DNA of 64,000 nucleotides from an uncultured bacterium. GTDB taxonomy: Bacteria; Verrucomicrobiota; Kiritimatiellia; PWTM01. The notes below the pieces were generated by a model that was not told where the DNA came from, ran no database searches, and was given only the letters and a program-made list of their open reading frames with translations. Shown here in pieces: positions 15,495 to 59,106 of the stretch. The DNA lies in assembly GCA_900661335.1 (NCBI GenBank), contig CAACVY010000003.1:99-64098 (forward strand). The letters run 5' to 3'. The position numbers were made by a program, and so were the translations under genes. Each line of letters begins with the position of its first letter. Position 1 is the stretch's first letter.

Positions 15495-15786
15495 GCAGTG
15501 AACTCCAAAACGTTCCACGCATAGCAAACAATCGTCCCGGCTTCAATGCGCATGGAACACCGTTCACGGGTCCAGCACAATCCCAGCGGGCTGGAACTTG
15601 GTTCCCCTGGGTCGCCAAGGCGAAGTGGGCGAGAAACGGATGTCGCGAATGTTGTGGCGGCCAGGCTCTCCCAACGACCGCTTGGCTTGGGGGACTGGCG
15701 CGATTGCTCGGCCGCGGATGGGCCGCGTTGACGGCACGGACCTTGACGACTACCATGCGCAGGCACGTTGCCCTTGGGCTGGACTC

Positions 15787-17151: not shown

Positions 17152-18500
17152 GCGATATCCTCCGCACGGTCCTAAAACCGGACATCTTGGAGCTGGTGGA
17201 GCTACGAGATTGGGCGACCTTGCAGGAGGTCCTCCGTCACCAGCCGGCGACAGATATCGTCGAATTGCTCGATGCTGTCTCCGATTCGGATGCACTGATT
17301 CTCTACCGATTGTTGCCGCGCAAGCTCGCCGAGGACGTGTTCGATCTTTTGCCGGTGGAGTTGCAGAACCGCCTCGTGCGTCTCATGAGTAGCGACGAGG
17401 CCGCGGCCATCGTCGAACAAATGTCACCCGACGATCGCACCGCGTTACTCGAAGAATTGCCTGCCCCGGTCGCCCGGCGCTTGCTCGACATGCTGCCCGA
17501 AGGCCAGCGGCGCGCGGCGCTGGCGCTGTTGAACTATCCCGAAGATTCCGTGGGCCGTTTGATGACGACGGCCTACGTGCGCGTGCGGCCAGAGTGGACG
17601 CGGGAACAAGTACTCGAGCACATCCGACAATATGGTGCCGACAGCGAAACGCTCGAAATGCTTTACGTAACGGATGAGCGTGGCCGATTGATGGACGACA
17701 TTCGGTTGCGACAGATCATTCTAGCCAATCCTGGTGCCCGCGTGGCGGATCTGATGGACCATCGTTTTATTGCGTTACGGGCCGACCAGGACCGTGAAGC
17801 TGCGGTGCACGAGTTCCGCAAATACGATCTCTACGCCATGCCCGTGGTGGACTCCGAGGGTCACTTGCTTGGGATTGTCACTCACGATGACGTGTTGCAA
17901 GTCGCCACGCAGGAAGCGACCGAGGACTTCCACCGGATTGGCACGGTTCAGCCGTTGCATACACGCTTTGCTATGGCCGGGGTCGGCTTGCTCATTCGGC
18001 GGCGGGTCAGCTGGCTGCTGGCGTTGGTGGGAGCCAATCTAATTTCCGGTAGCATCATCCACAGGTTCGAGGACTTGATCGCGGCCAATATCGTCCTCGC
18101 GTTCTTTTTGCCGTTGCTGGTCGACAGCGGCGGCAATTGCGGATCCCAGTCCTCGACCCTCGTAGTGCGTGCGCTGGCCACTGGGGACATCACCCCGCGA
18201 GACGCAGGGCGCTTATTGGCGCGCGAACTGATGGTGGGTCTTTTGCTCGGGGTGCTGACGGCGGCGGCGGTGTTCGTCTTGGGATGGTGGCGCGGCGGCC
18301 TCCCGATCGCCGAGATCGTCGCCCTCGCGATGGCCACCATCGTGGTCGTCAGCAGTGTGATCGGCTTGATGCTTCCGTTCCTGCTTTCGTGGCTTGGGTT
18401 CGATCCGGCGATGGCCAGCGCGCCGTTGATCACGACTTTGGCCGACATCACAGGCATCACCATCTATTTCCTCATCGCATCGCGCTGGCTCGCGTGCTGA
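17148..18500 (+). CDS. mgtE: magnesium transporter MgtE (copy 2)
   Basis: The GTG at 17148 overlaps the stop of copy 1 (GTGA). The architecture matches copy 1 (VSDILRTVLKPDILELVELRDW..., a CBS pair, GGNCGSQSSTL). Confidence 0.85.
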   Translation: MSDILRTVLKPDILELVELRDWATLQEVLRHQPATDIVELLDAVSDSDALILYRLLPRKLAEDVFDLLPVELQNRLVRLMSSDEAAAIVEQMSPDDRTALLEELPAPVARRLLDMLPEGQRRAALALLNYPEDSVGRLMTTAYVRVRPEWTREQVLEHIRQYGADSETLEMLYVTDERGRLMDDIRLRQIILANPGARVADLMDHRFIALRADQDREAAVHEFRKYDLYAMPVVDSEGHLLGIVTHDDVLQVATQEATEDFHRIGTVQPLHTRFAMAGVGLLIRRRVSWLLALVGANLISGSIIHRFEDLIAANIVLAFFLPLLVDSGGNCGSQSSTLVVRALATGDITPRDAGRLLARELMVGLLLGVLTAAAVFVLGWWRGGLPIAEIVALAMATIVVVSSVIGLMLPFLLSWLGFDPAMASAPLITTLADITGITIYFLIASRWLAC

Positions 18501-27881: not shown

Positions 27882-30095
27882 ATGGAGACTAATCGACCGA
27901 TCAAAACCATTTTGTTCGTCTGCACCGGCAATTCCTGTCGCAGTCCGATGGCGGCGGAGTTGTTCCGGTTGCGCGCGGGTCCGCAAGCCCCATGGCAGGC
28001 GAGTTCGGCCGGTTTGGCGGCGTTGGACGGCGCACCAGCGACCCCGGAGAGCGTCGAGGTCATTCGTGAGGTTGGAGGTGACCTGTCCGCGCACCGTGCG
28101 CGAAGAGTCACGAGGGAGATGGTGGAGTCGGCGGATTGGATCATCACATTCACCGCGAGTCAGGCTCGAGAGCTGCGACACATGGTGCCGGCCGCCGCGC
28201 CCCGCATCCGAACATTGGGCGAGTTTCGCTTGCGCGGCGCCGAGGGCGATATTCCTGACCCGATCGGCCAGTCTATCGAGGTGTACCGAGCGACTCGGGA
28301 TGCGATCGATTCCGCGATCGCCGACCTGTTGGTGGTGTTGTACGAACAAGATTCCAAAGCGCGGACCGAGAGCGCCTCGGCGTGGGCGTCGTCCGCCGCA
28401 GGAGGTTCGAGGACGATGAGAGTGGCAGTTGGGTGTGACCACGGCGGTTGGAAATTGAAACAGCAAGTGTTGGCGTGGTTGCGCGAGCACGGCATCGAGG
28501 CCGTGGACGTCGGGCCAGCAGCGGAGGAGCCGGTGGACTACCCGGACTTCGCGGCGGAAGTTGCGCGACGCGTGGAGCGCGGGGAAGTGGAACACGGGGT
28601 TGTCATTTGCACGACGGGGATCGGGGTGAGCATTACCGCCAATAAGTTTCCGGGGGTTCGGGCCGCGCTCTGCCTGTCTCCGTACATGGCCGAGATGGCA
28701 CGGCGCCATAACAACGCAAACGTTCTCGCGCTGGGCGGTAAAACGACGGATGTCCATACCCTTCCTGCCTTGCTCGAGGCATGGTTCTCTGCGCAGTTCG
28801 AAGGTGGCCGGCACGAGCGACGGGTGAACAAGATTGGGGCGATCGAAGCCGAGGAATCGGAGTTGGCCACCGTGACGCGCATGGATCCTGAAGTGGCCGA
28901 CGCGCTCCGAGCGGAATGGCGACGGCAGCGTGAGAACTTGGAGCTGATTGCGTCAGAAAACTACGTAAGCCGGGCCGTGCGCGAAGCCGTCGGGTCTGTC
29001 CTCACCAACAAGTACGCCGAGGGCTACCCTGGGCGCCGTTGGTACGGTGGGTGCGAATATGTGGACGTCGTCGAGCGGTTAGCGATCGAGCGGGCGCGGG
29101 CGTTGTTTGGAGCGGAACACGCCAACGTGCAGCCGCATTCGGGCAGTACGGCCAACATGGCGGTGTACTTCGCCTTGCTCCAGCCCGGCGACACCGTGAT
29201 GGGCATGAGTCTGGCCGAGGGGGGTCACCTTACCCACGGGCACCCCATGAACTTCTCTGGGCGGTTTTTCCGGATCGTGCCGTACGGGGTGCGGCGAGAT
29301 ACTGAGCAAATCGATTACGATGAGCTTGAGCGAAAGGCGCAAGAAGTCCGCCCGCGCATGATCATGGCTGGGGCGAGCGCCTATCCTCGCGTGATTGATT
29401 TTCAGCGTTTGCGTCGGATCGCGGATTCCGTCGGCGCGTACCTGGTCGTGGACATGGCGCACATTGCCGGGTTGGTGGCGGCGGGCGTTCACCCAAGCCC
29501 AGTCCCATGGGCCGATGTGGTCACCACCACCACCCATAAAACGTTGCGAGGTCCTCGCTCCGGGATGATTCTCTGCCGGGCCAAGTTTGCCGAGCTAATT
29601 GACAAACAATGTTTCCCGGGCATTCAGGGTGGGCCGCTCATGCACGTGATCGCGGGCAAAGCCGTGTGCTTGCGCGAGGCCACCACGAGCGAGTTCCGCC
29701 AGTACGCGCAGCAAATCGTGCGCAACGCGCAGGTGTTAGCCACACGCTTGGCGGAGGGTGGGCTGCGCATTGTGTCGGGTGGGACCGACAACCACCTGTT
29801 GCTGGCCGACGTCACCGGATTCGGATTGACAGGCAAAGAGGCAGCCGCGGCCCTGGATCGCGCGGGCATCACCGTGAACAAGAACACCATCCCATTCGAC
29901 ACGCGTTCGCCGTTTGTGACGTCCGGCATCCGCATCGGCACGCCGGCGGTCACGACTCGCGGCATGAAGGAGCCGGAGATGGAGGTGATCGCGGACTGCA
30001 TCCTCCAGGTACTACGACACCCGTCGGATGAAGCCGTCCTCACCCTTGTGCGCGAGCGGGTGCGAGAACTGACGTCACGGTTTCCGGTGCCGTGA
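27882..30095 (+). CDS. glyA: single-ORF fusion of a low-molecular-weight protein phosphatase, ribose-5-phosphate isomerase B and serine hydroxymethyltransferase
   Basis: Residues 1-150 carry the CX5R(S) loop VCTGNSCRS and DIPDP. Residues 179-318 match RpiB ([35 protein letters not shown]). Residues 334-737 match SHMT ([31 protein letters not shown]). There is no stop codon between the modules. The internal ATGs are at 28416 (preceded by GGAGG) and 28881. Confidence 0.85.
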
Positions 30096-47597: not shown

Positions 47598-47959
47598 ACA
47601 TTCCTCCGATCTGTGGTTTATAACATGATCGGCGATCCGCATGCCACTTCGCGAGCTGCGGGCGCGACTGGAGGGGAGCGAGCAAGGGCGCGGGATGGAC
47701 ATTTCCAACACTTCATGGTTTCGGCCGCGCGAAGTGCCCACAAACCCGCGAGCTTGTCTTCTTCGCTGGCCGGGCAGCGGCGGCCGGGAGAGCCCCTCCG
47801 CGAGGATGGGTTCACATCGAAGCTGGTGGGTTCCCGCACCAGTGCGGGCCGTTGCGCCGGTTGCGCCAGAGAAGCATGCTCGCTCTGAGGACCCCTGCTA
47901 GGATCTCGGGCGGCAGAAATTTGGCTTGGCATGGAGCATCAAGCCGGTATGTTGTGGTC

Positions 47960-48820
47960 ATGGCCGAGACGGTACGAAGGATTGCACCCGCCCCGTTCTG
48001 GGCGCATGTGGCGCCGTTCGCAGCGTTCGGTCTGATCTCGTATTTGGGGGATCATGGATGGGCGGCGTGGGGGATCGGTGCAGTGGTCGCGGTGGCACTC
48101 GCGTGGCGCTGGCAGCCGTGGCGGAGCGATCCTGCGACGTGGGCCCACGTGGCCCCGTTCGCGTTATGGATCACATTGATGATGTCGGTGACGGAGGCCT
48201 CCGCGGCGAACTACACCACCCGTACCGTTCTATGCGCTGCGCTTTGGATTTCGGCGCGTCCTTGGCGGTGGTACAACTGCCCGCACTGGGACCGGTGGCC
48301 CTGGGCCGTAGTCGTTGGAGTGGGGATGTGGGTCGTCTGGGTGGGGTTGGAAAGCGACTGGGCGCGTTCCGCGTGGCCAGCGTTGAGCGAGTGGTACGAA
48401 CGCTACGCGGTGGGACCGTTCCCCTCGGGTTGGGGGAAGCTCCGACCGAGTCTGGAATCCTACCCGTACTTGCCACAGCAGACCGGATGGATCCACTGGA
48501 GCATCCACATGCTGGGCACCTCCGTGGTGATCGCTACGATCGAAGAGTTTTTCTGGCGTGGATTTCTGTACCGTTGGCTGTGCGCCCCGCGGTTCACCGA
48601 CGTGCCACTCACCCACCGTGACGTGCCGATGATGTGGGCGGTGGCGGTTCTGTTCGGTCTGGAACACACGGAATGGGTGGCCGGCATCGTGACCGGATGG
48701 GCCTACGCCCTGCTGTTGCAGAAAACGGGAAACATTTGGATGCCGGTAGTGGCCCATGCGATCACGAATTTTCTTCTCGGCATTTACGTTCTCCGAACGG
48801 ACTCATGGTGGTTTTGGTGA
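47960..48820 (+). CDS. CPBP family intramembrane glutamic endopeptidase (CAAX protease/Abi-like)
   Basis: Motif 1 is IEEFFWRGFLYRW, motif 2 is FGLEHTEW and motif 3 is VAHAITNFLLG. The protein is polytopic. The ATG is at 47960. Confidence 0.8.
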   Translation: MAETVRRIAPAPFWAHVAPFAAFGLISYLGDHGWAAWGIGAVVAVALAWRWQPWRSDPATWAHVAPFALWITLMMSVTEASAANYTTRTVLCAALWISARPWRWYNCPHWDRWPWAVVVGVGMWVVWVGLESDWARSAWPALSEWYERYAVGPFPSGWGKLRPSLESYPYLPQQTGWIHWSIHMLGTSVVIATIEEFFWRGFLYRWLCAPRFTDVPLTHRDVPMMWAVAVLFGLEHTEWVAGIVTGWAYALLLQKTGNIWMPVVAHAITNFLLGIYVLRTDSWWFW

Positions 48821-48843: not shown

Positions 48844-51800
48844 GTGCGCTCTGGGTTTGTCCATTTGCACGTCCACACGGAATTTAGCTTGCTCGACAGC
48901 CTCGTTCGAATTCCCGCGCTCGTCGAGCGAGTGGCGCAGCTGGAGATGCCCGCGGTAGCGATCACGGACTCGGGCAACCTGTACGGCGCCGTCCGCTTTT
49001 ACCGCGAGGCGCGCCGCCGAGGGTTGAAGCCGATTCTGGGTGTGGAGCTTGAAGTCGCGCCGCTGGTCTATTCGCTGCAGCTTGAAGCGGAGTCAAATCC
49101 CGACCTGGTGTTGCTGGCGGAGACGCCCGAGGGGTGGAGTTCATTGCGCGAGCTGGTGAGCGAAGCGCACTGGGTGAACCCGCCGCCGGCCCGGCCTGTG
49201 GCCACGGTGGACATGCTCGCCCGTTGGACGCGTGGGCTAATCGTGTTGACGGGAGGCAACAACGGAGAGATCGCGCGGCTTTGTCGCGCCGGGCAACTCG
49301 ATGCAGCGGACGCCGCGCTGCGACAGCTGGTCGAGCTATTCGGCCGCGAGCAAGTGTTCGTGGAACTGGCGAATCAAGGGCTGCCCGGACAAGCGGAACT
49401 TCGGCAGGCGCTTCGGGAGCTCGCGCGCCGTGTGGGTGTCGCATGCGTGGCAACCAACAACGTTCACTATCTCTCGCCCGCGGACGCGACCGCGCACCAG
49501 CATCTCCGTAGCTGGCGCCGGGGGGCCACATACCGGGAGCTGGGGTATTCGGACCAGTTTCATCTCCGGTCGGCCGAAGAGATGTACGCGGCGTTTGTAG
49601 AGGATCCCGCCGCGGTCCAGCGCACTTTGGACATCGCCGAGCGCTGCCAAGCCACCCTGTACGTAGGCGATGGCCCGTCCGTCCCGGGCGTGGAGCTGCC
49701 CGCCGACCTGCAGCCCGAGATGCCGGCCGCGTACCGTGAGGAGTTGTACCTGCGGCGGTTGGCCACGGAGGCATTGCGCCGCCGCGCGCCGCACCTGCAA
49801 GGAGGCCTCGCCCTATACGAACGGCGGCTGGCCGCGGAGTTGGAGGCCGTGGGGCGCGCGGGGGCCGTGCGGCGCGTGTTGTGGTTCCGGGAGATCGTCC
49901 ACGCGGCGCGACGCGATGGATGGTCGTTGGGCGTGGCCCGGCCCAGTTGGACTTCGAGCTTGTTGTCGTGGCTGTTCGGGCTCACTGACGTGGATCCCGT
50001 GGACGAGGATGTTCCCCCGGACTCCTTCATCAACACGGAGCGGCCCGAAGCTCCCGAGCTCGCCTTGGAAGTCTCCCCGCTGCATCGAAGTGCGTTCGTG
50101 CGGTGGTTAATCAGGCGGATCGGGACCGACCGCGCCGGCCACACGATCACGTTCGGCGTGTTTGGCTGGCGGTCGGTGTTGCGAGAGCTGGCGCGGGGCC
50201 AAGGTTGGTCGCCGTCGGACACCGACGCGTTCATTCGGCGGATTCATGTGGACGACGGAGGACCGCTGGGGGCGACGGTGGCGGCGGTCAGTCGCCAGCT
50301 TGCGGAGCTTGGTCGGGAGGAGTGGGCCCGGATCCTGACGGCCGTGGCGGGTCTGCCTCGGAATCCGTCGGCGCACCCGACTGCGCTGGTGGTGTCGGAC
50401 CGTGCCCTGCGTACGCACGTTCCGGTTGCACGCACACCGGAGGGATTTTTGATTACGCAGTGGGATGCGGAGACGGTCGCACGTATGGGACCGGTTCGGT
50501 TGGATGTGGTTTCCCATGCAGGGGCGGTGTGGCTGAGCCCCGGCCCGGACGCGGAGGTGGGGCCATGCGAATCGAATGAACTTTCGGCCACACTGGCCGC
50601 GCTCGCCATGGGCGATCTGGTCGGCATTCCCTACGTGGACGCACCTGCGATTCGAGAGCGGCTGCGTCGAGAAGGCCTTCGCCATTGGCGCGAACTCGCC
50701 CAGTGGTTTGCGTGCGCGCCCTCCGAAAACCGCGACGCGACCGCAGCGACGTCCAAGCGGACCCCACTGGCCGAACCGGGCCGCGGCCGTCGCGCGCGAT
50801 GGTGGGGACTGCTGCGGGGCACGAATGGCCAGCTGCTGTTCGTGGAGCAGGCTCAGCGGTGGGCCGAGTGGATTGGCGGCTTCACTCCGGCGCGATCGGA
50901 CTTGCTGCGCCGTGCGGTGGTATCCCGCGACGAGGAGCTGATCGCGCGACTTTGGAAGTTGTTCGTTCGTGGCGCCTCCCAGCGGAAACTTTTGTCCGAC
51001 GAAGCGCGGTGGTACTGGGAACAGATTCTCGATACTTTAGCTCGACGCGTCAGCCGTACGCGGTTCTTGGCACAAGCTCGAGCGGTATGCCGCGCGGTGC
51101 GAACTCGCGAGCGCGACCCGTGGTCATGGCTGGCCCAGGCCTTGGACGCGCACGAAAGTGGGTCTCCCATGCGCCTGTGCTTGGTCCGCGAGGCACTGGT
51201 CCGCGGGTGGGTCCTTCGTGGGCCGGACTTGAATCAAAGTCGCGCGGTGACGGTACGCGAAGCTGATGGCGTTCGCCTCGGTCTTCTCGGCGTGCAGGGA
51301 CTGAACGAGCACGCGGTCGATGCCTGGCTGCGCGAGCGTGACCGTCGGGGACCATTCCGTAGTGTCGCCGACTTCATCCAACGGGTGGACATGCAGCAGT
51401 GGACTCGGGCTATGGCCGGGGCGTTGGTCAGCAGTGGGGCGTTGGACGGCTTAGGTGCTTCTCGCGATGCCGCGGCCGTGGAGTTAGAAGCGGGTTTGTT
51501 CGGGGCAAGTTCGGGCCGAGCGGTGGAGATGCCTCGGCGCACGCGATGGAGCGAGGAGCGAGAGGTTCTGGGTTTTCCGGTGAGCCCGCATCCTCTGGCC
51601 GAATGGGCGTGGCTTCTGTCGTTAGCAGGATTCCTCGGATGGGCCTCCGCGGACGCGGGTGTGGGAATGTGCGTCCCCTTGGCCGGAGTACTGGTGGAGC
51701 GGCGTACCGCGGGCGGGCGGGAACAGATTCGGTTCGACTGGTGGTCTGGCGAGGCCTGGGTCGACATGGAGGAAGGGGGAGATTCCAACGTGGAGGTGTT

Positions 51801-52137
51801 GGACGGCGAAGCCGGATGGGTAGTGGCCACCCAGGTGAGGGAAGATCTTTGGCGAGCCCGGGGCCCGATACGTCGGATCGACGAAATCGACGCGCATCTG
51901 CGTCAGTTGCACATTTCGCCGCCGAGCTGGATGACATGGCGGCAGATCGCCAAGGCGTTGGAAGAGGTCGTTGCGCAATGGCCAGGGGAGATCCCGGTGT
52001 GCGTCAACGCCGTCGGCCAGCGCGGATCGCGGCGAAACGGTGCGCGCGTGAGGCTGGGTTGCGAATGCGTGAGAGCATTGGCCCGAGCGTTCGGACTTGC
52101 CTCGCTTCAGGTGAAGCTTGACCTGGGAAGAGAGTAA
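48844..52137 (+). CDS. DNA polymerase III alpha (DnaE)-like protein with intact-looking PHP domain but degenerate polymerase active site
   Basis: GTG start. The PHP N-terminus is FVHLHVHTEFSLLDS...AITDSGNLYGAVRFY...KPILGVELEV...VATNNVHYL. The palm/fingers are colinear with E. coli DnaE but the key blocks are altered: GPGRGSGAGS becomes GVARPSWTSS, FERFLNPERVSMPDFDVDF becomes PDSFINTERPEAPELALEV, HAGGVVI becomes HPTALVV, and GFNKSHS becomes RVSRTRF. Confidence 0.75.
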   Translation: MRSGFVHLHVHTEFSLLDSLVRIPALVERVAQLEMPAVAITDSGNLYGAVRFYREARRRGLKPILGVELEVAPLVYSLQLEAESNPDLVLLAETPEGWSSLRELVSEAHWVNPPPARPVATVDMLARWTRGLIVLTGGNNGEIARLCRAGQLDAADAALRQLVELFGREQVFVELANQGLPGQAELRQALRELARRVGVACVATNNVHYLSPADATAHQHLRSWRRGATYRELGYSDQFHLRSAEEMYAAFVEDPAAVQRTLDIAERCQATLYVGDGPSVPGVELPADLQPEMPAAYREELYLRRLATEALRRRAPHLQGGLALYERRLAAELEAVGRAGAVRRVLWFREIVHAARRDGWSLGVARPSWTSSLLSWLFGLTDVDPVDEDVPPDSFINTERPEAPELALEVSPLHRSAFVRWLIRRIGTDRAGHTITFGVFGWRSVLRELARGQGWSPSDTDAFIRRIHVDDGGPLGATVAAVSRQLAELGREEWARILTAVAGLPRNPSAHPTALVVSDRALRTHVPVARTPEGFLITQWDAETVARMGPVRLDVVSHAGAVWLSPGPDAEVGPCESNELSATLAALAMGDLVGIPYVDAPAIRERLRREGLRHWRELAQWFACAPSENRDATAATSKRTPLAEPGRGRRARWWGLLRGTNGQLLFVEQAQRWAEWIGGFTPARSDLLRRAVVSRDEELIARLWKLFVRGASQRKLLSDEARWYWEQILDTLARRVSRTRFLAQARAVCRAVRTRERDPWSWLAQALDAHESGSPMRLCLVREALVRGWVLRGPDLNQSRAVTVREADGVRLGLLGVQGLNEHAVDAWLRERDRRGPFRSVADFIQRVDMQQWTRAMAGALVSSGALDGLGASRDAAAVELEAGLFGASSGRAVEMPRRTRWSEEREVLGFPVSPHPLAEWAWLLSLAGFLGWASADAGVGMCVPLAGVLVERRTAGGREQIRFDWWSGEAWVDMEEGGDSNVEVLDGEAGWVVATQVREDLWRARGPIRRIDEIDAHLRQLHISPPSWMTWRQIAKALEEVVAQWPGEIPVCVNAVGQRGSRRNGARVRLGCECVRALARAFGLASLQVKLDLGRE

Positions 52138-52156
52138 AATAAAATTCAACGAAGTA

Positions 52157-54920
52157 ATGCGCCGTTTATTGTCCGTTGCTTTCGTGGTCGGCCTGTCGGT
52201 GTCGGGCATGATCCCGATCGCCCTCGGGCAAGACACATATAAGGAGACGTGGGCCGCGGCCGCCTCCGCGCTGGCGCGCGGAGCGTACGAGGATGCGATC
52301 CCGCCGCTGCGGAAGCTGATCGAGTGGTTCGGCGACACGGACAAGGCCAGCATGAAGGCTGAGATGGAGTCGGTGTACTACCATCTCGGGCTGTGCCACT
52401 TGTTTCTTGGCCAGTTCAGTGAAGCCCGCGAGGTGTTCAATACATACCTTAAAAAATTTCAGTACGGCGCCCACGCCTCGTTGGTGGCAATTTTCATCGG
52501 CGACACCTATCGGTACGAAGGCAAGACGGGCGACGCATTGGGTGCGTACGAAAAAGCCCTGAAGTCCTACGAGTACAACCTGGATCTGAAGACGGATCTC
52601 TGGGTGTGCATGGCTAAGTGCCACTTGGCGACGGAGAAGTGGTCGGCGGCCGAACCGCTGTTGCTGCAGGTCTACCGGAATGCGCCGGATGGCTATCGTC
52701 GGAACTGGGCAGCGGCGATGTTGGCCACTGCGTACTTAAAGGACCACCAGCCGGACAAGGTGTATCCGATGGTCCCGTTGCTGCTGCAGCGGGATTCCTT
52801 TGCTGCGCGTAGTGTGGCGCTGAACATGGCGGCCTTGGAGGAGGGCGACCGGCTGTTCATGGAGGACAAATATCGCGACGCGTTGTGGGTGTACCGGGTT
52901 GGTGTATCCCCACGACCTCTTGCGCCTCAATGCCCAGACCCAACTCGAGCGGTGGCGGTTGCAAGTTCGTCGGTTCCAGCGGTACCTGGGGTTCGCACGC
53001 GAACTGTTGCGGGCGCAGGAGACGGTTTCCGAGATCGAGAGCGAGCTCCAGGCGATCGAGAAAATTCCGAACTACGATGTGGAGCTTCAGTACCGCATTG
53101 CGCGCGGGTACATGGAAACGCGTCGGCTTCGCGAGGCCTCCGAACTTTTCTACGCATTGTACAAGGATGCGCCACCGGAAAAGAAAGAAGAGACGCTGTA
53201 CCTCTCGTTTTTGTGCGCGCTTCGAATTCGGCCGGCCGACCGGTGTCTGGCGCGCGGGCATGAGTACATGGACCGATACCCCGGGGGGCCGCACTACGAT
53301 GCGGTGTCGTTGGGTGTGGGGCAGATCTACGCGGCGGAGCAGAACTGGCCCAAGGTGTTGCAAGTGCTCACGAAAGCCCTGGAGGTGCATCCCAAGCACG
53401 AGGACATTGCGGAGGTGCTGTTCTTGCTCGGCTATGCATCCTTCATGGAGGAAAAATTCGCCGACGCCCAAGGGTATTTGGGGCGCATTGTGAAGGAGTA
53501 TCCGGGCAGCGAGCGCGAGGTGGACGCGCTGTACTGGCTGGGCATGGCGTACATGTTCGACCGAAAGTACGAGGAGGCGCAGCCGAACTTCGATCGAATT
53601 TTGCGCGACTTCGGAACCGCCATGTATGCGGAGGACGCACTGTTTCGCTCCGCCACGTGCGACTATGCGCTGAGCCGATTTGAGGAGGCGGAGCGCAAGC
53701 TGCTGCGCTTCTTGGAGCGGTATCCCGAGAGCCGACTCAGGGGCGAGGCGCTCGTGACGCTGGGCGACATTTCTGGCGCGCTGGGTGAGTTGGAGGAAGC
53801 CGTGCGCCGGTACAAGCAGGGGATGGAGGTCCCGGACCTGAACATCGAACTCTACAACCATGCCGCGTTCCGTGCCGGCGAGATGCTGCGGGAACTTCAA
53901 CGTTACGACGATGCCATCCGGCACTTTGAGGACTACATCGCTCGCGCTCGGCCGGAGTCGAACATTCCGCTCGCGATTTATTGGATCGGCGAATGCTACT
54001 GGGACAAAGGCGAGCCCGAGGTGACGCTCGCGCGCTTTCTCGAGGCGGTGGAAAAGTACGGCGGCGATCGCACCGAACTGGGCGTGGATTTGATTCTGGA
54101 GAAGTGGGTGGACCGCACGCGCGGCGCGGGATCCCATGGTCGGGCGGCTTGGAGCCGGTTGCGCGACCTGCTGCGCCGCGCATTGGAGTCCCGGCAGTAC
54201 ACGTTGGCGCTTCGGCTAGAACGCGTGTTGATGTATTCGCCGGAGACCTCGGACACTGAAAAAGAGGCGATGCGGAAGTTCATCTTGCGCCCGGAAAGCC
54301 TCAAGTGGGCCAGCGCAGGCGTTCTCGAGTGGATCGTGCAAGAGGCGGCGGCGAGTCAACCCCAGCTGGCGCGAGAGGCGGCGGAAACACTCGTCCGCGA
54401 CTTCACCGAAACGGACTACGCGTTGAGCGCGCGGCAACTCATTGCGGAGCAAGCAATCGCGGAAAAGAACTGGGACCTGGCCATCGTCCAGTACAACATT
54501 ATCCGCGAAGTGTTTGCGACGTCCGACGCCGCCGCGGATGCGCTGTTGAAGCTCGGCAAGCTGTATCAGGAGAAAGGGGAGTATGATCTGGCGGACCAGG
54601 CGTACCGCGATTTCCTGGCGGCCAAGGAGTGGAAGGCCCGATGGCCCGAGGCCCTATACGAGCGTGGGCGGCTTTGGATGGCCCGGGGGCGGTACGAAGA
54701 AGCCGCGGCGTACTTCGAACGCATCTACGTGCTTTATGGCGGACACAAGGAATGGGTCGGGCGGGCGTACCTGGCGCGCGCGGAATGTCTTGCCAAGTTG
54801 GGGCGGTTCCGCGGTGCCATTGAAACGTTGGAGGAGTTTGTTGGCCGACCAGAGTACGCGGATCTGCCCGAGGTGGCCCAAGCCCGTGAGATGCAAGAGC
54901 GATTGAAGGCCAAGCTGTGA
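52157..54920 (+). pseudogene. large secreted TPR-repeat protein interrupted by a +1 frameshift near 52895-52899 (or a sequencing error)
   Basis: Frame A (52157..about 52897) encodes the signal MRRLLSVAFVVGLSVSGMIPIALG plus TPR-like helices, ending in ...DKYRDALWVYR. Frame B is open from 52824 and continues LVYPHDLLRLNAQ... with TPR repeats to 54920. After the junction, frame A becomes a Pro/Arg/Ala-rich sequence that does not look like protein. The junction lies in the run CGGG TTG. Confidence 0.65.
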
Positions 54921-55990
54921 TCCGAGCAACTTCCATCCTCGGCGGTTGGATCTGTGGGGCCTTGGTGGCCTATGGTCAAGGCGCCAGTGGGCCGCAGACG
55001 GCCACCGTCGCGCGGGCCGCCGCCGAACCCGGGGTGTTGGTGCGTCTGGTCAAGGAAAACGAAGCCCAACGCGAAGTGCTGTTGGTCCGGCGGCAGGGCG
55101 ATGTAATCTTCTTTCGGCTGACGAACTCGCCGCCAGGGGTGTACTCGCAGTTCAAAGCCGCAGACTGGGATGAGGCAGAGTTTAAAATCCAGATTCCGGA
55201 ACAAGCGGCCTACCTGGAGGCATCGCGTCGCCAGTGGGCGTCCGCCGCGCGTCGGCTGCACGTGGCCATTGCGCCGGCGTTGCCGTTTTTGGACTTGCCT
55301 CAGAACAACGTGTTCGAGCCCGCGGTGCGCACGGCGTGGTACTATGTGCGAGCGGCGCAGCAAGCGGCGCGCCGTGGCGAGGGCGGGCAAGCGGACGCAC
55401 GTACGTACTACACCGCCGCCTACGAGGTGTTTCGTGAGGCCGGGCGTGCCGCGTCGTGGCATCCGTACGGGCAGTGTGCCGCCATCCGCGCTACGCTGTG
55501 CCTCGTGGAGTTGGGGCGGCTCGACGAGGCCGAGGCCGGGTTGGCGAAACTTCCCGAGCCTGAGATCGGCGACACGGCCTGGGGCGTGTACTGGTTGGCC
55601 CGTGCGCAGCTCTACTACGCGCGCGAACAACCCCGCTACGCGCTGGAAGCGGCCATTCTCTCCTACCTGCACGAGAACAAGGACGTGGAAACTTTCCCCG
55701 ACGCCCTCATGTTGGCCGCGCAGTGCTACGAAGACGTCAACGAGGTCCATCGCGCGCGCGACGTCTACTACGAAGTCGCGCGGCTGTTCCCGGGCACGGA
55801 TTGGGGGGATGAAGCGCGGGCTAGGTTAGTAAACATCATGGAACGCCGCATGACCGAGCGCCCCGAGGACCCCAACATCGCCGGAATTTTCTTTGGCACC
55901 GAAGAGGACATGAACGAAAAGGTCCGGAAGTTCTTGAAGGAGACCGAACCGAAACTGAATAGTTCCACGACAGGAGACAAGCAACCATGA
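54917..55990 (+). CDS. secreted TPR-like helical repeat protein
   Basis: The GTG at 54917 overlaps the upstream stop (GTGA). The signal is SILGGWICGALVAYGQG. Helical repeats are present (YYTAAYEVFREAG..., WLARAQLYYAREQPRYALEAA..., AAQCYEDVNEVHRARDVYYEVARLFPGT). Confidence 0.7.
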   Translation: MIRATSILGGWICGALVAYGQGASGPQTATVARAAAEPGVLVRLVKENEAQREVLLVRRQGDVIFFRLTNSPPGVYSQFKAADWDEAEFKIQIPEQAAYLEASRRQWASAARRLHVAIAPALPFLDLPQNNVFEPAVRTAWYYVRAAQQAARRGEGGQADARTYYTAAYEVFREAGRAASWHPYGQCAAIRATLCLVELGRLDEAEAGLAKLPEPEIGDTAWGVYWLARAQLYYAREQPRYALEAAILSYLHENKDVETFPDALMLAAQCYEDVNEVHRARDVYYEVARLFPGTDWGDEARARLVNIMERRMTERPEDPNIAGIFFGTEEDMNEKVRKFLKETEPKLNSSTTGDKQP

Positions 55991-56868
55991 CCCTACGAAC
56001 CTCACGCAGCATCGGAGTTTGGATGTTGGCGATCGCTCTCGGCTGGGGCGCGATGGCTTGGGCCCAGCAGGCCTCACCGGCGGTCGCCCAGCCACCCCCC
56101 ACCAAAGATGTGGAAGTGAAGATCACTTTGTGGGACCTCTGGGTGACGGGCGGGTGGGCGATGTATCCCATCGCACTCCTCTCTATCCTGGGGGCGGCGC
56201 TGACTGTGCATGGGTTCCTGTTCACGCGCCCGGAGAAAATGGTCCAATCGCACCTGGTGCCGATATTGCAGTCGCACATCAACAACCTGGATTTTCGTGC
56301 GGCCAGCGCGCTGTGTGCACAGAACCCCGGGGTCTTGACCAACATCGTCAATGCCGGCCTGCTTCGGTTGGCGGACGGCATTACGGACGTCGCCGTGCTA
56401 GAGAAGGCCATGGAAGAGGCCGCGGTGGAGGAAAACACCAATGGCCTGCGGCCTATCAGTTACCTCTCGATCTTCGCGTCCACCGCGCCAATGTTCGGAC
56501 TGCTGGGTACGGTGAGCGGTATGATCAAGGCGTTCCAAAAAATCGGGTTGGGGGCGATGGGCAACCCTGAAAAGCTTGCCGGAAACATTGGCGAGGCCAT
56601 GATCACCACGGCGTTTGGGTTGATCGTGGGCATTCCGCTGATGTTCTTCTATTTCTACCTCAAGTCTAGGTTTCAAGGGAACATGGCGCGCATCGGGCGC
56701 TTGGCGGGCAACCTCACCCACCACATGTCCTCGATCTTTGACCGACTCCGTACCGGCGAGCTGCCGTTGGATCGCGTGACGTTACCGGAACTGATGATGC
56801 CGTTGCCCGCGGCGAGCCCCGCGCCGGCTACATCGCCAGCCCCAACGACGTCGACCCCCGGAGCTTGA
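55987..56868 (+). CDS. exbB: MotA/TolQ/ExbB proton-channel family protein
   Basis: The ATG overlaps the upstream stop (ATGA). APMFGLLGTVSGMIKAF...NIGEAMITTAFGLIVGIPLMFFY is the canonical ExbB/TolQ TM2-TM3 block. Confidence 0.88.
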   Translation: MTLRTSRSIGVWMLAIALGWGAMAWAQQASPAVAQPPPTKDVEVKITLWDLWVTGGWAMYPIALLSILGAALTVHGFLFTRPEKMVQSHLVPILQSHINNLDFRAASALCAQNPGVLTNIVNAGLLRLADGITDVAVLEKAMEEAAVEENTNGLRPISYLSIFASTAPMFGLLGTVSGMIKAFQKIGLGAMGNPEKLAGNIGEAMITTAFGLIVGIPLMFFYFYLKSRFQGNMARIGRLAGNLTHHMSSIFDRLRTGELPLDRVTLPELMMPLPAASPAPATSPAPTTSTPGA

Positions 56869-56870
56869 CC

Positions 56871-57296
56871 ATGAGGCTGATCCGCGAAGACGTCGAAGAA
56901 GCTAAGTTCCAGATGGCGCCCATGATCGACATGGTGTTTCTGCTGTTGGTCTTTTTCATGTGCGCCTCGCAGATCAGCCAGAACAAGGCATTGCAGCTGG
57001 AGCTTCCCGTGGCGACCAAAGGCGTCGTTCCCAAGGAACGACCCACTCGTTGGATCGTCAACATCTTCGCGGATGGACAATTGTTCAGCGGCGATCGGCC
57101 GTGTTCAGTGGACGAGCTCAAGGCCGAAGTTTCTCGACGGCTTCGAGAAGAGCCGAATACGAAGATCTACCTGCGCGCGGACGCCAAGGCAGAGTACCGT
57201 CACATCAAAAAGGTGCTCGAGGCCATGGCCTCGATCGGCGTGGATGATTTCATTTTTGCCGTGTTCAACCCCAGCGAGAGTGCACTTTCCCCATGA
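56871..57296 (+). CDS. exbD: ExbD/TolR biopolymer transport protein (copy 1)
   Basis: FQMAPMIDMVFLLLVFFM contains the conserved TM Asp, followed by the periplasmic domain KIYLRADAKAEYRHIKKVLEAMASIG. Confidence 0.85.
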   Translation: MRLIREDVEEAKFQMAPMIDMVFLLLVFFMCASQISQNKALQLELPVATKGVVPKERPTRWIVNIFADGQLFSGDRPCSVDELKAEVSRRLREEPNTKIYLRADAKAEYRHIKKVLEAMASIGVDDFIFAVFNPSESALSP

Positions 57297-57730
57297 AGTT
57301 CCCTACGTTCGAGATCGAAGACCCGGACATCAACGTCTCCTCGCTGATTGACATGGTGTTCCTCCTGTTGTCCTATTTCATTGTGTCGGCCAGCTTGGTC
57401 CGCTCCGAGGCGGATCTCGGGATTCGCCTGCCGGGCATGCTGGCCCAAGCGCAGACGGTGGACATGGCCGACGAACAGATCATCGAGATCCGTGATACCG
57501 GTCGAGTGGTGCTGAACGGGTTGGAGTACGACTCGCCCGACTCGACGGAGCTGCCTCAACTGGTCCAGGTGTTGACCCGGTACCGATTAGCCTCCGAGGC
57601 GGCGCGCGCCGAGCCAATGATCACATTGCAACCCGACGACAAGGCCCGCCACCAACGGGTGGTGGACGTAATGAACGCCTGCGCGCGGGCAGGGATCAAG
57701 AACGTGACCTTCGCCGCCGGAGGTGGCTAA
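57293..57730 (+). CDS. exbD: ExbD/TolR biopolymer transport protein (copy 2)
   Basis: ATGA overlap with copy 1. INVSSLIDMVFLLLSYFIV contains the TM Asp, followed by ITLQPDDKARHQRVVDVMNACARAG. Confidence 0.85.
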   Translation: MKFPTFEIEDPDINVSSLIDMVFLLLSYFIVSASLVRSEADLGIRLPGMLAQAQTVDMADEQIIEIRDTGRVVLNGLEYDSPDSTELPQLVQVLTRYRLASEAARAEPMITLQPDDKARHQRVVDVMNACARAGIKNVTFAAGGG

Positions 57731-57747
57731 GCTAGGAGGGTCGCGCA

Positions 57748-59106
57748 GTGAAATCGGCTGTGCCATTGGATGTGATCCTCTCGGGCTTCGGATACCTGAA
57801 GCTCTCCGAGGAGCGGCGCCGAACGCTGTGGACCGTGGGGTTGATCAGCCTTTTGCTCCACGTGGCGGCGTTGCTGGTGTTCGGCTCGTGGGTAGTCATC
57901 CGTTCGTTGTTGGAAGAGCGCACGGTCTTCACCGCTCCGCCGCCCCTCAAAACCTATGAACCGCGCAAGCTGGAACATCAGGTGAAGGTGACCAAGCGGC
58001 AGCGCAGTTCTAGCCGACCGGCGGTCATGCCCCGAATGGTCGCGGCGCGGCCGTCGAGCCTGGCGTTGCCGGAAATCAAAGTGGATCCCAAAGTGGTCCG
58101 GACCAGTTTCCAGCCGAAATTTAAGGCGATCACCGGCATCGGGCTCGGCGCGGGCCTGGGGCAGGGCTACGGGCTGGGAGGCTTCGGCGAGGGCGTCTCG
58201 GCCTTCGACTTCTTCGGCATCCGTGGCCGCGGTGAAAAGATCATGATTTGTGTGGACGTGTCCATCAGTATGGTGGAGGAAGAGCGCGGTGGGTTCGAAG
58301 GGTTCGATCGAGTCCGTGCGCGACTCGGCCAGGTGATCGATGCGCTGACGGAGAAGACGTTGTTCAACGTTGTGGTCTTCGCCGATGCCGCGCAGACGTT
58401 CCGGGACGAGATGGTGCCGGCGACGGACGCGAACAAGCGGGAGGCGAAGAAGTTTCTAGCCCAGTTCAACACTCCCAAGAACTACGGTTTGACTTCGGGC
58501 AACGTCCGGTCCGTGGACCTCGGGCTGAAGGCGAAAGGCGGCACCACCCGGCTGGACTTGGCCCTCACGGCGGCGTTCCTCCAAGGCGCCGATACGATCT
58601 TGATCATTTCCGACGGACTTCCTCGCGTGGCCAAAGATATCACGGCGGATCAACTGGCCGCGTGGAATGCGCGGTTGGAAGAGTGGCGCAAAGCGAACGA
58701 GGCCGCGCTCCGTGCTTATGACGAAGCCGTAGCCAAGATGGAATGGCGCGAAGAGCGCGTGTGGATTCCACCGAAGCCGGCTCAACCCGCCAAGCTGCGC
58801 GAGAACGGCGGCTCGGGCGGTTCGGGACCTACGGAGGGCCATTGGGCAACTCGACGGGTACCCACGCGCCCATTGCCACCGCGGCCGAAGCCGCCCGAAA
58901 TGCCGGAGAGCATGAAGTGGTGGACATTGGAAGATTTCTTTGAACATTTCCGGCTGTTGCACGAGCAATGCTATGTCAAGAAAGGCAAGAAGCCGCCCGT
59001 CGTGCACGCCATCGGCTACGGTATTGACAAGGAAGGCGCGGATTTCTTGCGCGAGTTCACCAAGAAGTACAACGGCTCGTTCCGCAGCATCAGCCGAATT
59101 CAATGA
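57748..59106 (+). CDS. membrane-anchored vWA (MIDAS) domain protein with TonB/TolA-type SxxxH transmembrane helix
   Basis: The GTG lies 7 nt after AGGAGG. The TM helix is LWTVGLISLLLHVAALLVFGSWVVI, with S34 and H38 in SxxxH spacing. The vWA domain has MIDAS residues CVDVSISM (DxSxS), GGTTRLD and IISDG. Its last strands (VVHAIGYGIDKEGADFLREF...) are separated from the core by a coiled/Pro-rich insertion of about 110 aa. Confidence 0.8.
   Translation: MKSAVPLDVILSGFGYLKLSEERRRTLWTVGLISLLLHVAALLVFGSWVVIRSLLEERTVFTAPPPLKTYEPRKLEHQVKVTKRQRSSSRPAVMPRMVAARPSSLALPEIKVDPKVVRTSFQPKFKAITGIGLGAGLGQGYGLGGFGEGVSAFDFFGIRGRGEKIMICVDVSISMVEEERGGFEGFDRVRARLGQVIDALTEKTLFNVVVFADAAQTFRDEMVPATDANKREAKKFLAQFNTPKNYGLTSGNVRSVDLGLKAKGGTTRLDLALTAAFLQGADTILIISDGLPRVAKDITADQLAAWNARLEEWRKANEAALRAYDEAVAKMEWREERVWIPPKPAQPAKLRENGGSGGSGPTEGHWATRRVPTRPLPPRPKPPEMPESMKWWTLEDFFEHFRLLHEQCYVKKGKKPPVVHAIGYGIDKEGADFLREFTKKYNGSFRSISRIQ

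What the first reader, a model, noticed from the sequence alone, without database searches (positions are those of the whole stretch)
48844..52137. DnaE paralogue with a mutated catalytic Asp pair: a probable polymerase-dead pseudoenzyme that keeps its PHP domain
The 1097-aa ORF is colinear with Pol III alpha from the PHP domain to the OB region. The palm motif that reads PDFDVDF in E. coli (catalytic D401 and D403) reads PELALEV here: E405, A407 and E409 at nt 50056-50070. The glycine-rich GSGAGS loop, the HAGG block and the fingers motif GFNKSHS are also replaced. The third Asp may survive, in RLDVV where E. coli has KFDFLGL. The ORF still has no stop over 3.3 kb, and the PHP motifs (HLHVH, ITDSG, GVELEV, NVHY) are well kept. 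That pattern suggests selection for a non-polymerase role, for example as a scaffold or a PHP phosphoesterase/exonuclease. It lies 23 nt after a CPBP protease gene and 19 nt before the TPR/ExbBD/vWA operon.
Basis: partly seen in the sequence, partly recalled or inferred. Interest (0 to 1): 0.66.

Follow-up and report, generated by a model that had tools for sequence, protein, structure and literature searches.

The report
Polymerase-dead DnaE copy in Kiritimatiellia
This gene encodes a full-length, correctly folded relative of the bacterial replicative DNA polymerase that has lost the residues needed to make DNA yet has been kept intact by selection in several related bacteria, which makes it the first conserved "dead" member of this polymerase family that I could find described.

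Summary
The 1097-aa ORF at 48844-52137 is real and is a complete Pol III alpha (DnaE1-type) homologue. An AlphaFold model (pLDDT 86.6) matches Taq, M. tuberculosis and E. coli alpha over their full length. Two of the three catalytic Asp are replaced (PDxDxDF becomes PELALEV). The GRGS nucleotide loop, the HAAG block and the NKSH steric-gate motif are also lost. Four of nine metal ligands are gone, and one of these changes (Asp to Asn) is the difference seen between two Taq alpha crystal-structure sequences. The internal clamp-binding QxxLF motif is deleted in this lineage.

The gene belongs to a rare divergent clade nested in Verrucomicrobiota/Kiritimatiellia DnaE1. Seven further members also lack at least one catalytic Asp. 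All six examined lie in the same eight-gene block: CPBP protease, DnaE-like, YbgF-like TPR, a ~357-aa protein, ExbB, ExbD, ExbD, vWA.

dN/dS against a 91 %-identical orthologue is 0.26 (CI 0.19-0.34). It is nevertheless the fastest-evolving gene of the block.

Best reading: a non-catalytic DnaE1 paralogue. I could not show a canonical dnaE in the same genome. That step rests on inference.

The parts
48844..52137 (+). DnaE-like gene, 1097 aa, GTG start, TAA stop. It is a full-length Pol III alpha homologue with a disrupted polymerase site.
   Evidence: ORF listing and translation. Pfam finds PHP, DNA_pol3_alpha, HHH_6 and a weak finger domain. It scores below every NCBIfam cut-off. AF2 model has pLDDT 86.6 and pTM 0.81. 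Foldseek top hits are Pol III alpha with TM 0.69-0.74.
48844..49713 (+). PHP domain (aa 1-290). The fold is kept, but the metal site is degenerate: H7 H9 D18 S43 E68 D87 G138 N206 H208.
   Evidence: Pfam PF02811 at 1.6e-37. Alignments to Taq and E. coli alpha. Column states across 268 homologues. Lowest dN/dS of the protein, 0.10.
49933..49962 (+). Degenerate nucleotide-binding loop VARPSWTSSL, in place of the canonical PGRGSAAGSL (GS motif).
50053..50073 (+). PELALEV in place of PDxDxDF. The catalytic Asp pair is replaced by E405 and A407, and the DnaE-specific third Asp of the motif by E409.
   Evidence: phmmer alignment to 2hpi. MAFFT alignments. Coordinates.
50374..50394 (+). HPTALVV in place of HAAGVVI. 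P512 is a clade-specific invariant.
50497..50514 (+). RLDVVS. The third catalytic Asp (D554) is retained and the preceding Lys is replaced by Arg.
51046..51066 (+). RVSRTRF in place of GFNKSHS. The steric-gate His is replaced by R740. R735, V736, S737 and R740 are invariant in the eight inactive-clade sequences.
   Evidence: H760 of E. coli is reported as invariant in Pol III alpha (PMC8485763).
51214..51471 (+). Helix-hairpin-helix / beta-binding domain (aa 791-876), retained.
   Evidence: Pfam HHH_6 at 3.5e-18. Model pLDDT about 90.
51493..51534 (+). Site where the internal clamp-binding motif (GQxLLF) of relatives is deleted (GLFGASSGRAVEMP). The model is poorly ordered here.
   Evidence: Segment comparison. 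pLDDT below 50 at residues 890-898.
51670..52134 (+). OB-like beta-barrel (about aa 943-1011) and C-terminal alpha/beta domain (about aa 1019-1092).
   Evidence: Secondary structure of the model. Full-length superposition on Taq alpha-tau complex 4iqj, plus weak OB-fold hits. No Pfam PF01336 hit.
47960..48820 (+). Upstream gene of the conserved block: a CPBP (Rce1-like) intramembrane protease of the PEP-CTERM-associated type. The start is uncertain, because the longest ORF begins at 47852.
   Evidence: Pfam PF02517. TIGR03008 scores 122.5 bits against a cut-off of 81. It has the same position in L001, L002, L006, L089 and L092.
52157..54920 (+). YbgF/CpoB-like TPR gene. In the window it is split by a 1-nt insertion near 52896, whereas relatives have a single 911-933 aa gene.
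54917..59106 (+). Rest of the conserved block: a ~357-aa protein, ExbB/TolQ-like, two ExbD/TolR-like proteins, and a 452-aa membrane-anchored vWA protein.
   Evidence: Pfam and NCBIfam. MIDAS-like DxSxS...T...D motif in alignment A5. Synteny in six genomes.

Best explanation
The gene encodes a non-catalytic descendant of the Kiritimatiellia/Verrucomicrobiota DnaE1 lineage, in other words a Pol III alpha pseudoenzyme.

Shown: it folds as a complete alpha subunit (PHP, palm, thumb, fingers, HhH/beta-binding, OB, C-terminal domain). It lacks two of the three metal-binding Asp of the polymerase site, the GS nucleotide loop and the steric-gate His. It also lacks four of the nine PHP metal ligands. 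It is kept as an intact ORF under purifying selection. It sits in an operon-like block that is conserved in six genomes.

Inferred: it can neither polymerise nor proofread. The genome replicates with a separate canonical DnaE1. The protein is retained for a binding role, namely DNA binding through the HhH and OB modules and protein contacts through the well-conserved PHP and palm half. Sister lineages keep a QxLLF clamp-binding motif, so the ancestral role probably involved docking on the beta clamp, as the dead Y-family polymerase ImuB does. The window's lineage has deleted that motif, and its C-terminal half is under weaker constraint. It is therefore the most reduced member, with function probably concentrated in the N-terminal half.
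For: Fold: AF2 pLDDT 86.6 and pTM 0.81. Foldseek matches Taq, Mtb and E. coli alpha at E 1e-64 to 1e-52 with TM 0.69-0.74.

Dead polymerase site: the triad is E/A/D, against D/D/D in 255 of 268 homologues. GRGS, HAAG and NKSH are replaced. It scores below all NCBIfam DnaE cut-offs, 414.6 against 1002. The literature states that D401, D403 and D555 are absolutely conserved in the whole C family, and that H760 is invariant (PMC3919608; PMC8485763).

Dead PHP site: 4 of 9 ligands are lost.

Selection: dN/dS is 0.26, bootstrap CI 0.19-0.34, with 0 of 2000 replicates at or above 1. The N-terminal half gives 0.125 and the C-terminal half 0.39. 202 positions are invariant among 8 inactive-clade sequences that share only about 40 % identity, including clade-specific RVSxxR and N206. 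The ORF is intact in all six contigs examined. GC3 is native.

Family: it forms a distinct clade in an exhaustive search of 1.8 billion representatives. That clade is nested in Verrucomicrobiota DnaE1. One member is labelled Kiritimatiellae.

Conserved block.

Canonical DnaE1 proteins that carry the OB domain are abundant in Kiritimatiellia MAGs and lie in other contexts.
Against: No canonical dnaE was shown in any genome that carries the dead copy. The 64-kb window has none. The three candidate partners failed or were inconclusive.

Acidic residues persist at 405, 409 and 554, and R552 and R689/R690 persist too, so residual metal or nucleotide binding is not excluded.

The gene evolves three to four times faster than its operon neighbours: 37-45 % identity where neighbours are 57-90 %. 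It has lost the clamp motif. It is almost free of Lys (0.5 % K, 12 % R). All three points also fit slow decay.

dN/dS rests on a single close pair. No binding partner or expression data exist. The neighbouring genes are envelope genes and give no functional clue.
Confidence: 0.7

Rival explanations
1. A relic in slow decay: a redundant dnaE copy that has lost function and has simply not yet been interrupted. The apparent constraint would come from selection against toxic misfolded or truncated products, or from operon read-through.
For: It is the fastest-evolving gene of the block. The C-terminal half has omega 0.39, and the fingers, HhH and OB/CTD parts have upper confidence limits of 0.65-0.80. 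The clamp motif is deleted in this lineage only. Composition has drifted to 12 % Arg and 0.5 % Lys. The triad has eroded independently in several branches: DGD, EDD, LEN. The adjacent TPR gene carries a frameshift in this assembly.
Against: A 3.3-kb ORF is intact in six contigs whose products are 37-69 % identical, and 91 % for the closest pair. Omega is 0.26 overall and 0.125 for the N-terminal half, with no bootstrap replicate reaching 1. 202 positions are invariant, including replaced motifs that are themselves conserved. The position inside the block is unchanged while both flanks differ in every genome.
Confidence: 0.13
2. It is still a DNA (or other nucleotidyl) polymerase that uses a non-canonical metal site built from E405, E409 and D554.
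For: An acidic residue is kept at positions 405 and 409 in every inactive-clade member: EAE, ES(D), EG(D). D554, R552 and the DLLRRA motif are kept. The palm is under strong constraint, omega 0.15.
Against: The second Asp is A, S or G. The GS loop that holds the triphosphate is gone, as are the steric-gate His and the neighbouring Lys. The Asp triad is reported as absolutely conserved in all C-family polymerases (PMC3919608). The clamp motif is deleted.
Confidence: 0.06
3. One reading: the protein is kept as a PHP phosphoesterase or 3'-5' exonuclease.
For: PHP is the best-conserved domain: 55 % identity to clade members, against 27-37 % for the other domains. It has the lowest omega, 0.10. Five of nine ligands remain. 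In PolX the PHP exonuclease does outlive the polymerase site (PMC12926913).
Against: H43S, H87D, C138G and D206N remove four ligands. D206N is invariant in the clade and matches the Asp/Asn difference between the sequences of Taq entries 2hpi and 3e0d. By the published criterion, any deviation from HHDHEH[C/H]DH counts as inactive. E. coli alpha has a similarly degenerate PHP that serves only as the epsilon-binding module (my knowledge).
Confidence: 0.06
4. It is the only C-family polymerase of the genome, and replication depends on some other enzyme.
For: I found no canonical dnaE that could be assigned to any genome with this gene. The DDD-bearing sister group (P0003 and relatives) shows that very divergent DnaE1 forms exist in related organisms.
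Against: Every one of about 2000 and 3070 complete bacterial genomes surveyed has a DnaE1 or DnaE3 (PMC3919608, PMC12926913). Canonical DnaE1 is common in Kiritimatiellia MAGs. My searches listed only 120 of about 8000 hits, so absence from them says nothing. A rate three to four times that of its neighbours is not how a replicase behaves.
Confidence: 0.02

Closest known systems
DnaE1, the replicative Pol III alpha subunit (E. coli DnaE, Taq 2hpi/4iqj, M. tuberculosis 7pu7)
   Same: It has the same domain order and fold from PHP to the C-terminal domain. It is nested phylogenetically in Verrucomicrobiota DnaE1. The third catalytic Asp, the HhH domain and the DLLRRA motif are kept.
   Different: Two catalytic Asp, the GS loop, HAAG, the NKSH steric gate and the clamp motif are lost. 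It scores below all curated family cut-offs. It evolves three to four times faster than neighbouring genes. It lies in an envelope-gene block, not in the contexts seen for canonical Kiritimatiellia dnaE1.
[quoted passage not shown]
   Same: It is a polymerase homologue that has lost its catalytic carboxylates but keeps the fold and is maintained by selection. Sister members of this clade keep a QxLLF clamp-binding motif, as ImuB does (PMC12926913, PMC11791113).
   Different: It belongs to a different polymerase family (C, not Y). No imuA, dnaE2 or recA-like neighbours are present. The window's copy has lost the clamp motif. No partner is known.
Bacterial PolX proteins with an inactivated polymerase site, and PolX-like proteins (PMC12926913)
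   Same: The polymerase site has decayed in a protein that also carries a PHP domain, and the PHP domain is the better-conserved part.
   Different: In PolX the PHP exonuclease ligands are conserved and active. Here four of nine are lost. The polymerase fold family and the size also differ.
Inactivated B-family polymerases (C-terminal module of Pol epsilon, archaeal inactivated PolB, poxvirus F12; PMC2669801, PMC4304020)
   Same: This is the general phenomenon of a replicative-polymerase fold kept as a structural or scaffolding module after catalytic death.
   Different: The fold is unrelated, the organisms are eukaryotic, archaeal or viral, and those proteins have known structural roles.
DnaE2 (ImuC), the accessory error-prone C-family polymerase
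   Same: It is presumably a second, non-essential DnaE-type gene in a genome. The PHP site is degenerate.
   Different: DnaE2 keeps the Asp triad and is active. The window protein scores 266 bits against a cut-off of 939 on the DnaE2 model. It has a C-terminal domain after the OB fold, which by my recollection DnaE2 lacks. It is not linked to imuA/imuB.

Membership tests
C-family DNA polymerase, DnaE1 (Pol III alpha) | Pol III alpha fold and domain order: PHP, palm, thumb, fingers, HhH/beta-binding, OB, CTD | tested here: met
   Pfam domains. AF2 model pLDDT 86.6. Foldseek TM 0.69-0.74 to full-length Taq, Mtb and E. coli alpha.
C-family DNA polymerase, DnaE1 (Pol III alpha) | Catalytic Asp triad (E. 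coli D401, D403, D555), reported as absolutely conserved in the whole family | tested here: not met
   The window has E405, A407 and D554. 255 of 268 homologues have D/D/D. Literature statement in PMC3919608.
C-family DNA polymerase, DnaE1 (Pol III alpha) | GS nucleotide-binding loop (GRGSxAGS) and fingers NKSH motif with the steric-gate His | tested here: not met
   ARPSWTSS and RVSRTRF. His to Arg is invariant in the inactive clade, while canonical sequences have His in 100 %. PMC8485763.
C-family DNA polymerase, DnaE1 (Pol III alpha) | Score at or above the curated NCBIfam cut-off for a DnaE model | tested here: not met
   NF004226 gives 414.6 against 1002. TIGR00594 gives 422 against 434.35. 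All other models fall far below their cut-offs.
C-family DNA polymerase, DnaE1 (Pol III alpha) | Internal beta-clamp-binding motif Qxx(L/M)F after the HhH domain | tested here: not met
   It is deleted in the window and in P0001. It is present as GQxLLF in P0004, P0007, P0008, P0009, P0125 and the P0003 group, and as QGLLF in P0002.
C-family DNA polymerase, DnaE1 (Pol III alpha) | Role as the genome's essential replicase | not testable with these tools
   The window's own genome could not be retrieved. No second dnaE could be assigned to a carrier genome.
DnaE2 / ImuC error-prone polymerase | Match to the DnaE2 subfamily model, intact triad, linkage to imuA/imuB | tested here: not met
   NF004225 gives 266 against 939. 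The triad is broken. No Y-family or RecA-like genes lie within 10 kb in six contexts.
Active PHP 3'-5' exonuclease / phosphoesterase | Nine metal ligands H H D H E H C/H D H | tested here: not met
   The window has H H D S E D G N H. The criterion comes from PMC12926913.
Non-catalytic polymerase homologues (pseudo-polymerases such as ImuB) | Loss of catalytic carboxylates with the fold retained and purifying selection operating | tested here: met
Non-catalytic polymerase homologues (pseudo-polymerases such as ImuB) | A demonstrated binding partner or adaptor role (clamp, active polymerase) | not testable with these tools
   There is only sequence evidence for a clamp motif in sister lineages. 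No interaction data exist.

The most novel reading that the evidence does not exclude
This clade is a previously unrecognised class of C-family pseudo-polymerase: a dead Pol III alpha that still docks on replisome parts (the beta clamp through QxLLF in most members, and possibly tau and epsilon through the retained CTD and PHP surfaces). It would act as a placeholder, brake or adaptor. It would be co-expressed with a Tol/Exb-like envelope machine and so link replication status to envelope or division functions. The window's lineage would be a derived form that has given up clamp binding.
Probability: 0.2. Interest if true: 0.75.

Novelty: new variant of a known kind. Interest (0 to 1): 0.58.

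Why it matters
Two systematic surveys of bacterial polymerases report that the catalytic Asp triad is absolutely conserved throughout the C family. They describe inactive homologues only for the Y, X and B families (PMC3919608, PMC12926913). A conserved, selected clade of Pol III alpha homologues without that triad is an exception. It would add the C family to the list of polymerase folds reused as non-enzymatic modules.

It also has a practical consequence. These genes are annotated 'DNA polymerase III subunit alpha' in MAGs. They would therefore be counted as the replicase in marker-gene or completeness analyses, and in DnaE-based phylogenies.

In E. coli, most attempted steric-gate dnaE variants could not be cloned, which the authors put down to dominant-negative toxicity (PMC8485763). 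How a cell tolerates a natural dead alpha is therefore a concrete, testable question.

Tried and rejected
1. Looking for a canonical dnaE in the same genome.
- The window holds none.
- The window's own record could not be retrieved.
It returned only one clade member (L009, in the P0003 group) among canonical DnaEs of unrelated taxa.
- Accessions of ten named Kiritimatiellia/Verrucomicrobiota DnaE1 did not match the MAG of P0004, whose accession is MCX7818540.1.
- P0295 lies in the same ENA assembly (ERZ6863929) as P0008. However, its tetranucleotide correlation is 0.94, its GC is 65 % against 69 %, and no relative is above 66 % identity. It probably belongs to another organism.
- P0428 is in a different MAG from P0002.
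- P0341 has a tetranucleotide correlation of 0.90 with the window, against 0.97-0.98 within the window.

2. The supplementary tables of the 2026 polymerase survey list Kiritimatiella glycovorans, but the per-genome polymerase table is truncated.

3. A metagenome scan with the vWA protein, meant to sample the block with and without the dnaE-like gene, gave five loci that were too short or cut upstream.

4. Defence-system reading of the ExbB/ExbD block: no PADLOC hits.

5. DnaE2 identity was rejected.

6. Recent horizontal transfer was rejected, because GC3 equals that of the neighbours.

7. The promoter and terminator scans inside the block gave counts at chance level.


Full report
OBSERVATION

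The ORF is as described. It starts at GTG 48844, stops at TAA 52135-52137 and encodes 1097 codons. Pfam finds PHP (aa 7-176), the Pol III alpha palm/NTPase domain (302-555), a weak finger match (652-714) and HHH_6 (791-876).

A phmmer alignment to Taq Pol III alpha (2hpi) puts PELALEV (aa 404-410, nt 50053-50073) on PDIDTDF. The other correspondences are:
- ARPSWTSS on GRGSAAGS;
- HPTALVV on HAAGVVI;
- RVSRTRF on GFNKSHA;
- RLDVVS on KMDFLG.
MAFFT alignments with 16 and then 267 homologues give the same columns. At the three catalytic columns, 255 of 268 sequences read D/D/D and the window reads E/A/D.

The PHP statement is not correct at residue level. The nine metal ligands (H H D H E H C/H D H) read H7 H9 D18 S43 E68 D87 G138 N206 H208. 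N206 matches the Asp/Asn difference between the sequences of Taq entries 2hpi and 3e0d. In addition, the internal clamp-binding motif GQxxLF, present in canonical DnaE1, is deleted here.

WHAT THE PROTEIN IS

It scores below every curated NCBIfam DnaE model: 414.6 bits against a cut-off of 1002 for NF004226, 422 against 434 for TIGR00594, and 266 against 939 for the DnaE2 model.

It is nevertheless a complete alpha subunit. An AlphaFold2 model built on a 63-sequence alignment has mean pLDDT 86.6 and pTM 0.81. It shows an OB-like barrel (about aa 943-1011) and a C-terminal alpha/beta domain (about 1019-1092) that Pfam does not detect. Foldseek against the PDB returns full-length Taq alpha, M. 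tuberculosis DnaE1 and E. coli alpha first, with E 1e-64 to 1e-52 and TM 0.69-0.74.

THE FAMILY

A word-indexed search of 5.8 billion proteins found one 91 %-identical relative (P0001). It then found nine proteins at 35-40 % identity (419-583 bits). Ordinary DnaE1 proteins followed at about 28 % identity and 370 bits or less.

An exhaustive profile search of 1.84 billion representatives shows the same step and a few intermediate sequences. In a neighbour-joining tree of 281 sequences, these form a 19-sequence clade nested within Verrucomicrobiota DnaE1. Its successive sister groups are P0166, P0130/P0134 and then a clade that includes Victivallales.

Triad states within the clade:
- E/A/D: window and P0001;
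- E/S/D: P0004, P0007, P0008, P0009;
- E/G/E: P0002;
- D/G/D: P0125 and P0144;
- E/D/D: P0010;
- L/E/N: P0138;
- D/D/D: P0003/5/6 with L009, and P0126, P0127, P0129.
Catalytic residues have therefore eroded more than once in this clade.

P0004 comes from an NCBI MAG labelled Kiritimatiellae (GCA_026417735.1). L009 comes from a MAG labelled Verrucomicrobiota. The family is rare: about ten 90 % clusters.

SELECTION

Against the P0001 contig (L002), Nei-Gojobori dN/dS for the gene is 0.26. The bootstrap 95 % CI is 0.19-0.34, and 0 of 2000 replicates reach 1. By part:
- PHP: 0.10;
- palm/thumb: 0.15;
- fingers: 0.37;
- HhH: 0.34;
- OB/CTD: 0.44.
Neighbouring genes give 0.01-0.16.

Across deeper comparisons the gene is by far the fastest-evolving member of its operon. 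It shows 37-45 % identity where the seven neighbours are 57-90 %, and 63-69 % where they are 81-97 %.

All six copies examined are nevertheless uninterrupted. 202 positions are invariant among eight inactive-clade sequences. These include replaced motifs that are themselves fixed: N206, P512 and R735-V736-S737...R740.

GC3 (0.75) equals that of the neighbours, so the gene is native. The protein is 12 % Arg and 0.5 % Lys, a drift expected for a weakly constrained protein in a GC-rich genome.

The picture is reduced but real purifying selection, strongest on the N-terminal half.

CONTEXT

The gene order is identical in the window and in five other contigs (L001/P0004, L002/P0001, L006/P0002, L089/P0008, L092/P0009):
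1. CPBP protease (TIGR03008, the PEP-CTERM-associated type);
2. DnaE-like;
3. YbgF/CpoB-like TPR protein of about 920 aa;
4. a ~357-aa protein;
5. ExbB/TolQ-like;
6. ExbD/TolR-like;
7. ExbD/TolR-like;
8. a ~450-aa membrane-anchored vWA protein.
Gaps or overlaps between genes are short, while the flanks differ in every genome.

Terminator-like sites in the scanned block region are no more frequent than in shuffled sequence. No defence-system models hit.

The D/D/D sister group (P0003) lies elsewhere. Canonical Kiritimatiellia dnaE1 genes lie next to fusA or behind a GNAT gene, never in this block.

The block looks like an envelope (Tol/TonB-like) module. This says nothing obvious about DNA. E. 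coli dnaE also sits among envelope-synthesis genes (my knowledge), so I do not read a functional link into the synteny.

IS THERE A CANONICAL dnaE IN THE SAME GENOME?

This is the weak point. The 64-kb window has none, and the window's own record could not be retrieved.

A profile of the nearest canonical sequences retrieved many DnaE1 proteins of 1170-1185 aa, most with an OB-domain hit. Seven are named Kiritimatiellae or Kiritimatiellia by NCBI. The class therefore has an ordinary replicase lineage distinct from this clade.

None of the candidates I could test belongs demonstrably to a carrier genome:
- The accessions do not match the MAG of P0004.
- P0295 is in the same ENA assembly as P0008. 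It differs in GC, its tetranucleotide correlation is 0.94, and it lacks the close relatives that the P0008 host has.
- P0428 is in another MAG.
- P0341 has a tetranucleotide correlation of 0.90 with the window, against 0.97-0.98 inside the window.
The hit lists show only 120 of about 8000 matches, so this failure is uninformative rather than negative.

The paralogue status therefore rests on inference. Every complete bacterial genome surveyed has a DnaE1 or DnaE3 (PMC3919608; PMC12926913). In the 2014 survey the catalytic Asp triad was absolutely conserved throughout the C family (PMC3919608).

HOW IT MOST LIKELY WORKS

Shown:
- the fold is kept;
- the polymerase metal site, the triphosphate loop and the steric gate are lost;
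- the PHP metal site is lost;
- purifying selection operates;
- the operon position is conserved.

Inferred: the protein has no polymerase or proofreading activity and acts by binding. The retained HhH and OB modules suggest DNA binding. The strongly constrained PHP-palm half suggests a protein-protein surface; in E. coli the degenerate PHP domain is the epsilon-binding module (my knowledge).

Most clade members keep GQxLLF, so the ancestral dead form probably still bound the clamp. This is the logic of ImuB, the dead Y-family polymerase that serves as a clamp-bound adaptor. The window's lineage has deleted this motif, and its C-terminal half is more relaxed.

In E. coli most steric-gate dnaE variants could not be cloned, which the authors attributed to dominant-negative toxicity (PMC8485763). 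By my inference, losing clamp binding could relieve such interference.

I give this non-catalytic, binding-protein reading about 0.7. The alternatives are slow decay at about 0.13, residual non-canonical catalysis at about 0.06, a PHP hydrolase role at about 0.06, and sole polymerase of the genome at about 0.02.

COMPARISON WITH WHAT IS KNOWN

By fold and descent it is a DnaE1 derivative. By the defining catalytic features it fails membership of the active family.

It is not DnaE2. The model score is low, there is no imuA/imuB linkage, the triad is broken and a CTD is present.

It works most like known pseudo-polymerases: ImuB in the Y family, PolX with a dead polymerase site, and inactivated B-family modules (PMC12926913, PMC2669801, PMC4304020).

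Full-text searches found no description of a catalytically dead C-family homologue. The 2014 survey states that the triad is absolutely conserved in the entire family. I therefore rate it a new variant of a known kind.

LIMITS

- dN/dS rests on one close pair.
- The tree is neighbour-joining on a fast MAFFT alignment.
- No expression or interaction data exist.
- The key paralogy step is inferred.

Noticed in passing
window 52157-54920 (break near 52896): The YbgF/CpoB-like TPR gene just downstream is split into two overlapping ORFs by a single extra base relative to the 93 %-identical L002. Relatives have one 911-933 aa gene. This is either an assembly error or a genuine frameshift or pseudogene.
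   Followed up: partly
window 27882-30095 (+): One uninterrupted 737-aa ORF carries three normally separate domains: a low-molecular-weight phosphotyrosine phosphatase (aa 10-150), RpiB (181-318) and serine hydroxymethyltransferase (332-707). It may be an unusual triple fusion.
   Followed up: no
window 15598-18500 (+): Two tandem MgtE-type magnesium transporter genes, each with MgtE_N, CBS and MgtE domains. Their longest ORFs overlap by about 290 nt.
   Followed up: no
proteins P0138, P0144, P0125, P0010 (no window coordinates): Other branches of the same divergent DnaE clade have different broken triads: L/E/N, D/G/D, D/G/D and E/D/D. P0127 and P0138 have a degenerate clamp motif (QxLLP). 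Catalytic erosion therefore seems to have happened repeatedly.
   Followed up: partly
P0003/P0005/P0006 and L009:10001-13285: The sister group keeps D/D/D but has GRG(P/A)V instead of GRGS, an altered NKSH motif (LSKAH and similar) and the same degenerate PHP site. It lies in a different context, with uvrC and GH127 nearby. It is unclear whether it is the sole replicase of its hosts or an active second copy.
   Followed up: partly
window 57748-59106 (+): The last gene of the block has no Pfam hit at 1e-3. The alignment of its six orthologues shows an N-terminal hydrophobic stretch that looks like a membrane helix, and a vWA-like MIDAS pattern (CVDVSISM ... GGTTRLD ... ISDG). It is 78-97 % conserved among the six genomes.
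   Followed up: partly
window 52118-52145 (+): A 10-of-12 sigma-70-like hexamer pair lies inside the last codons of the DnaE-like gene, 12 nt upstream of the TPR start codon. The number of such sites in the region is at chance level.
   Followed up: no
L093, L102 and L095, L096: Canonical Kiritimatiellia dnaE1 genes show two recurrent contexts: with fusA (EF-G) upstream on the opposite strand, or directly after a GNAT acetyltransferase and followed by a large protein with no Pfam hit.
   Followed up: no
window 48844-52137: The DnaE-like protein is almost devoid of lysine (0.5 % K against 12 % R; FYMINK 9.6 %). Its GC3 matches that of neighbouring genes.
   Followed up: yes
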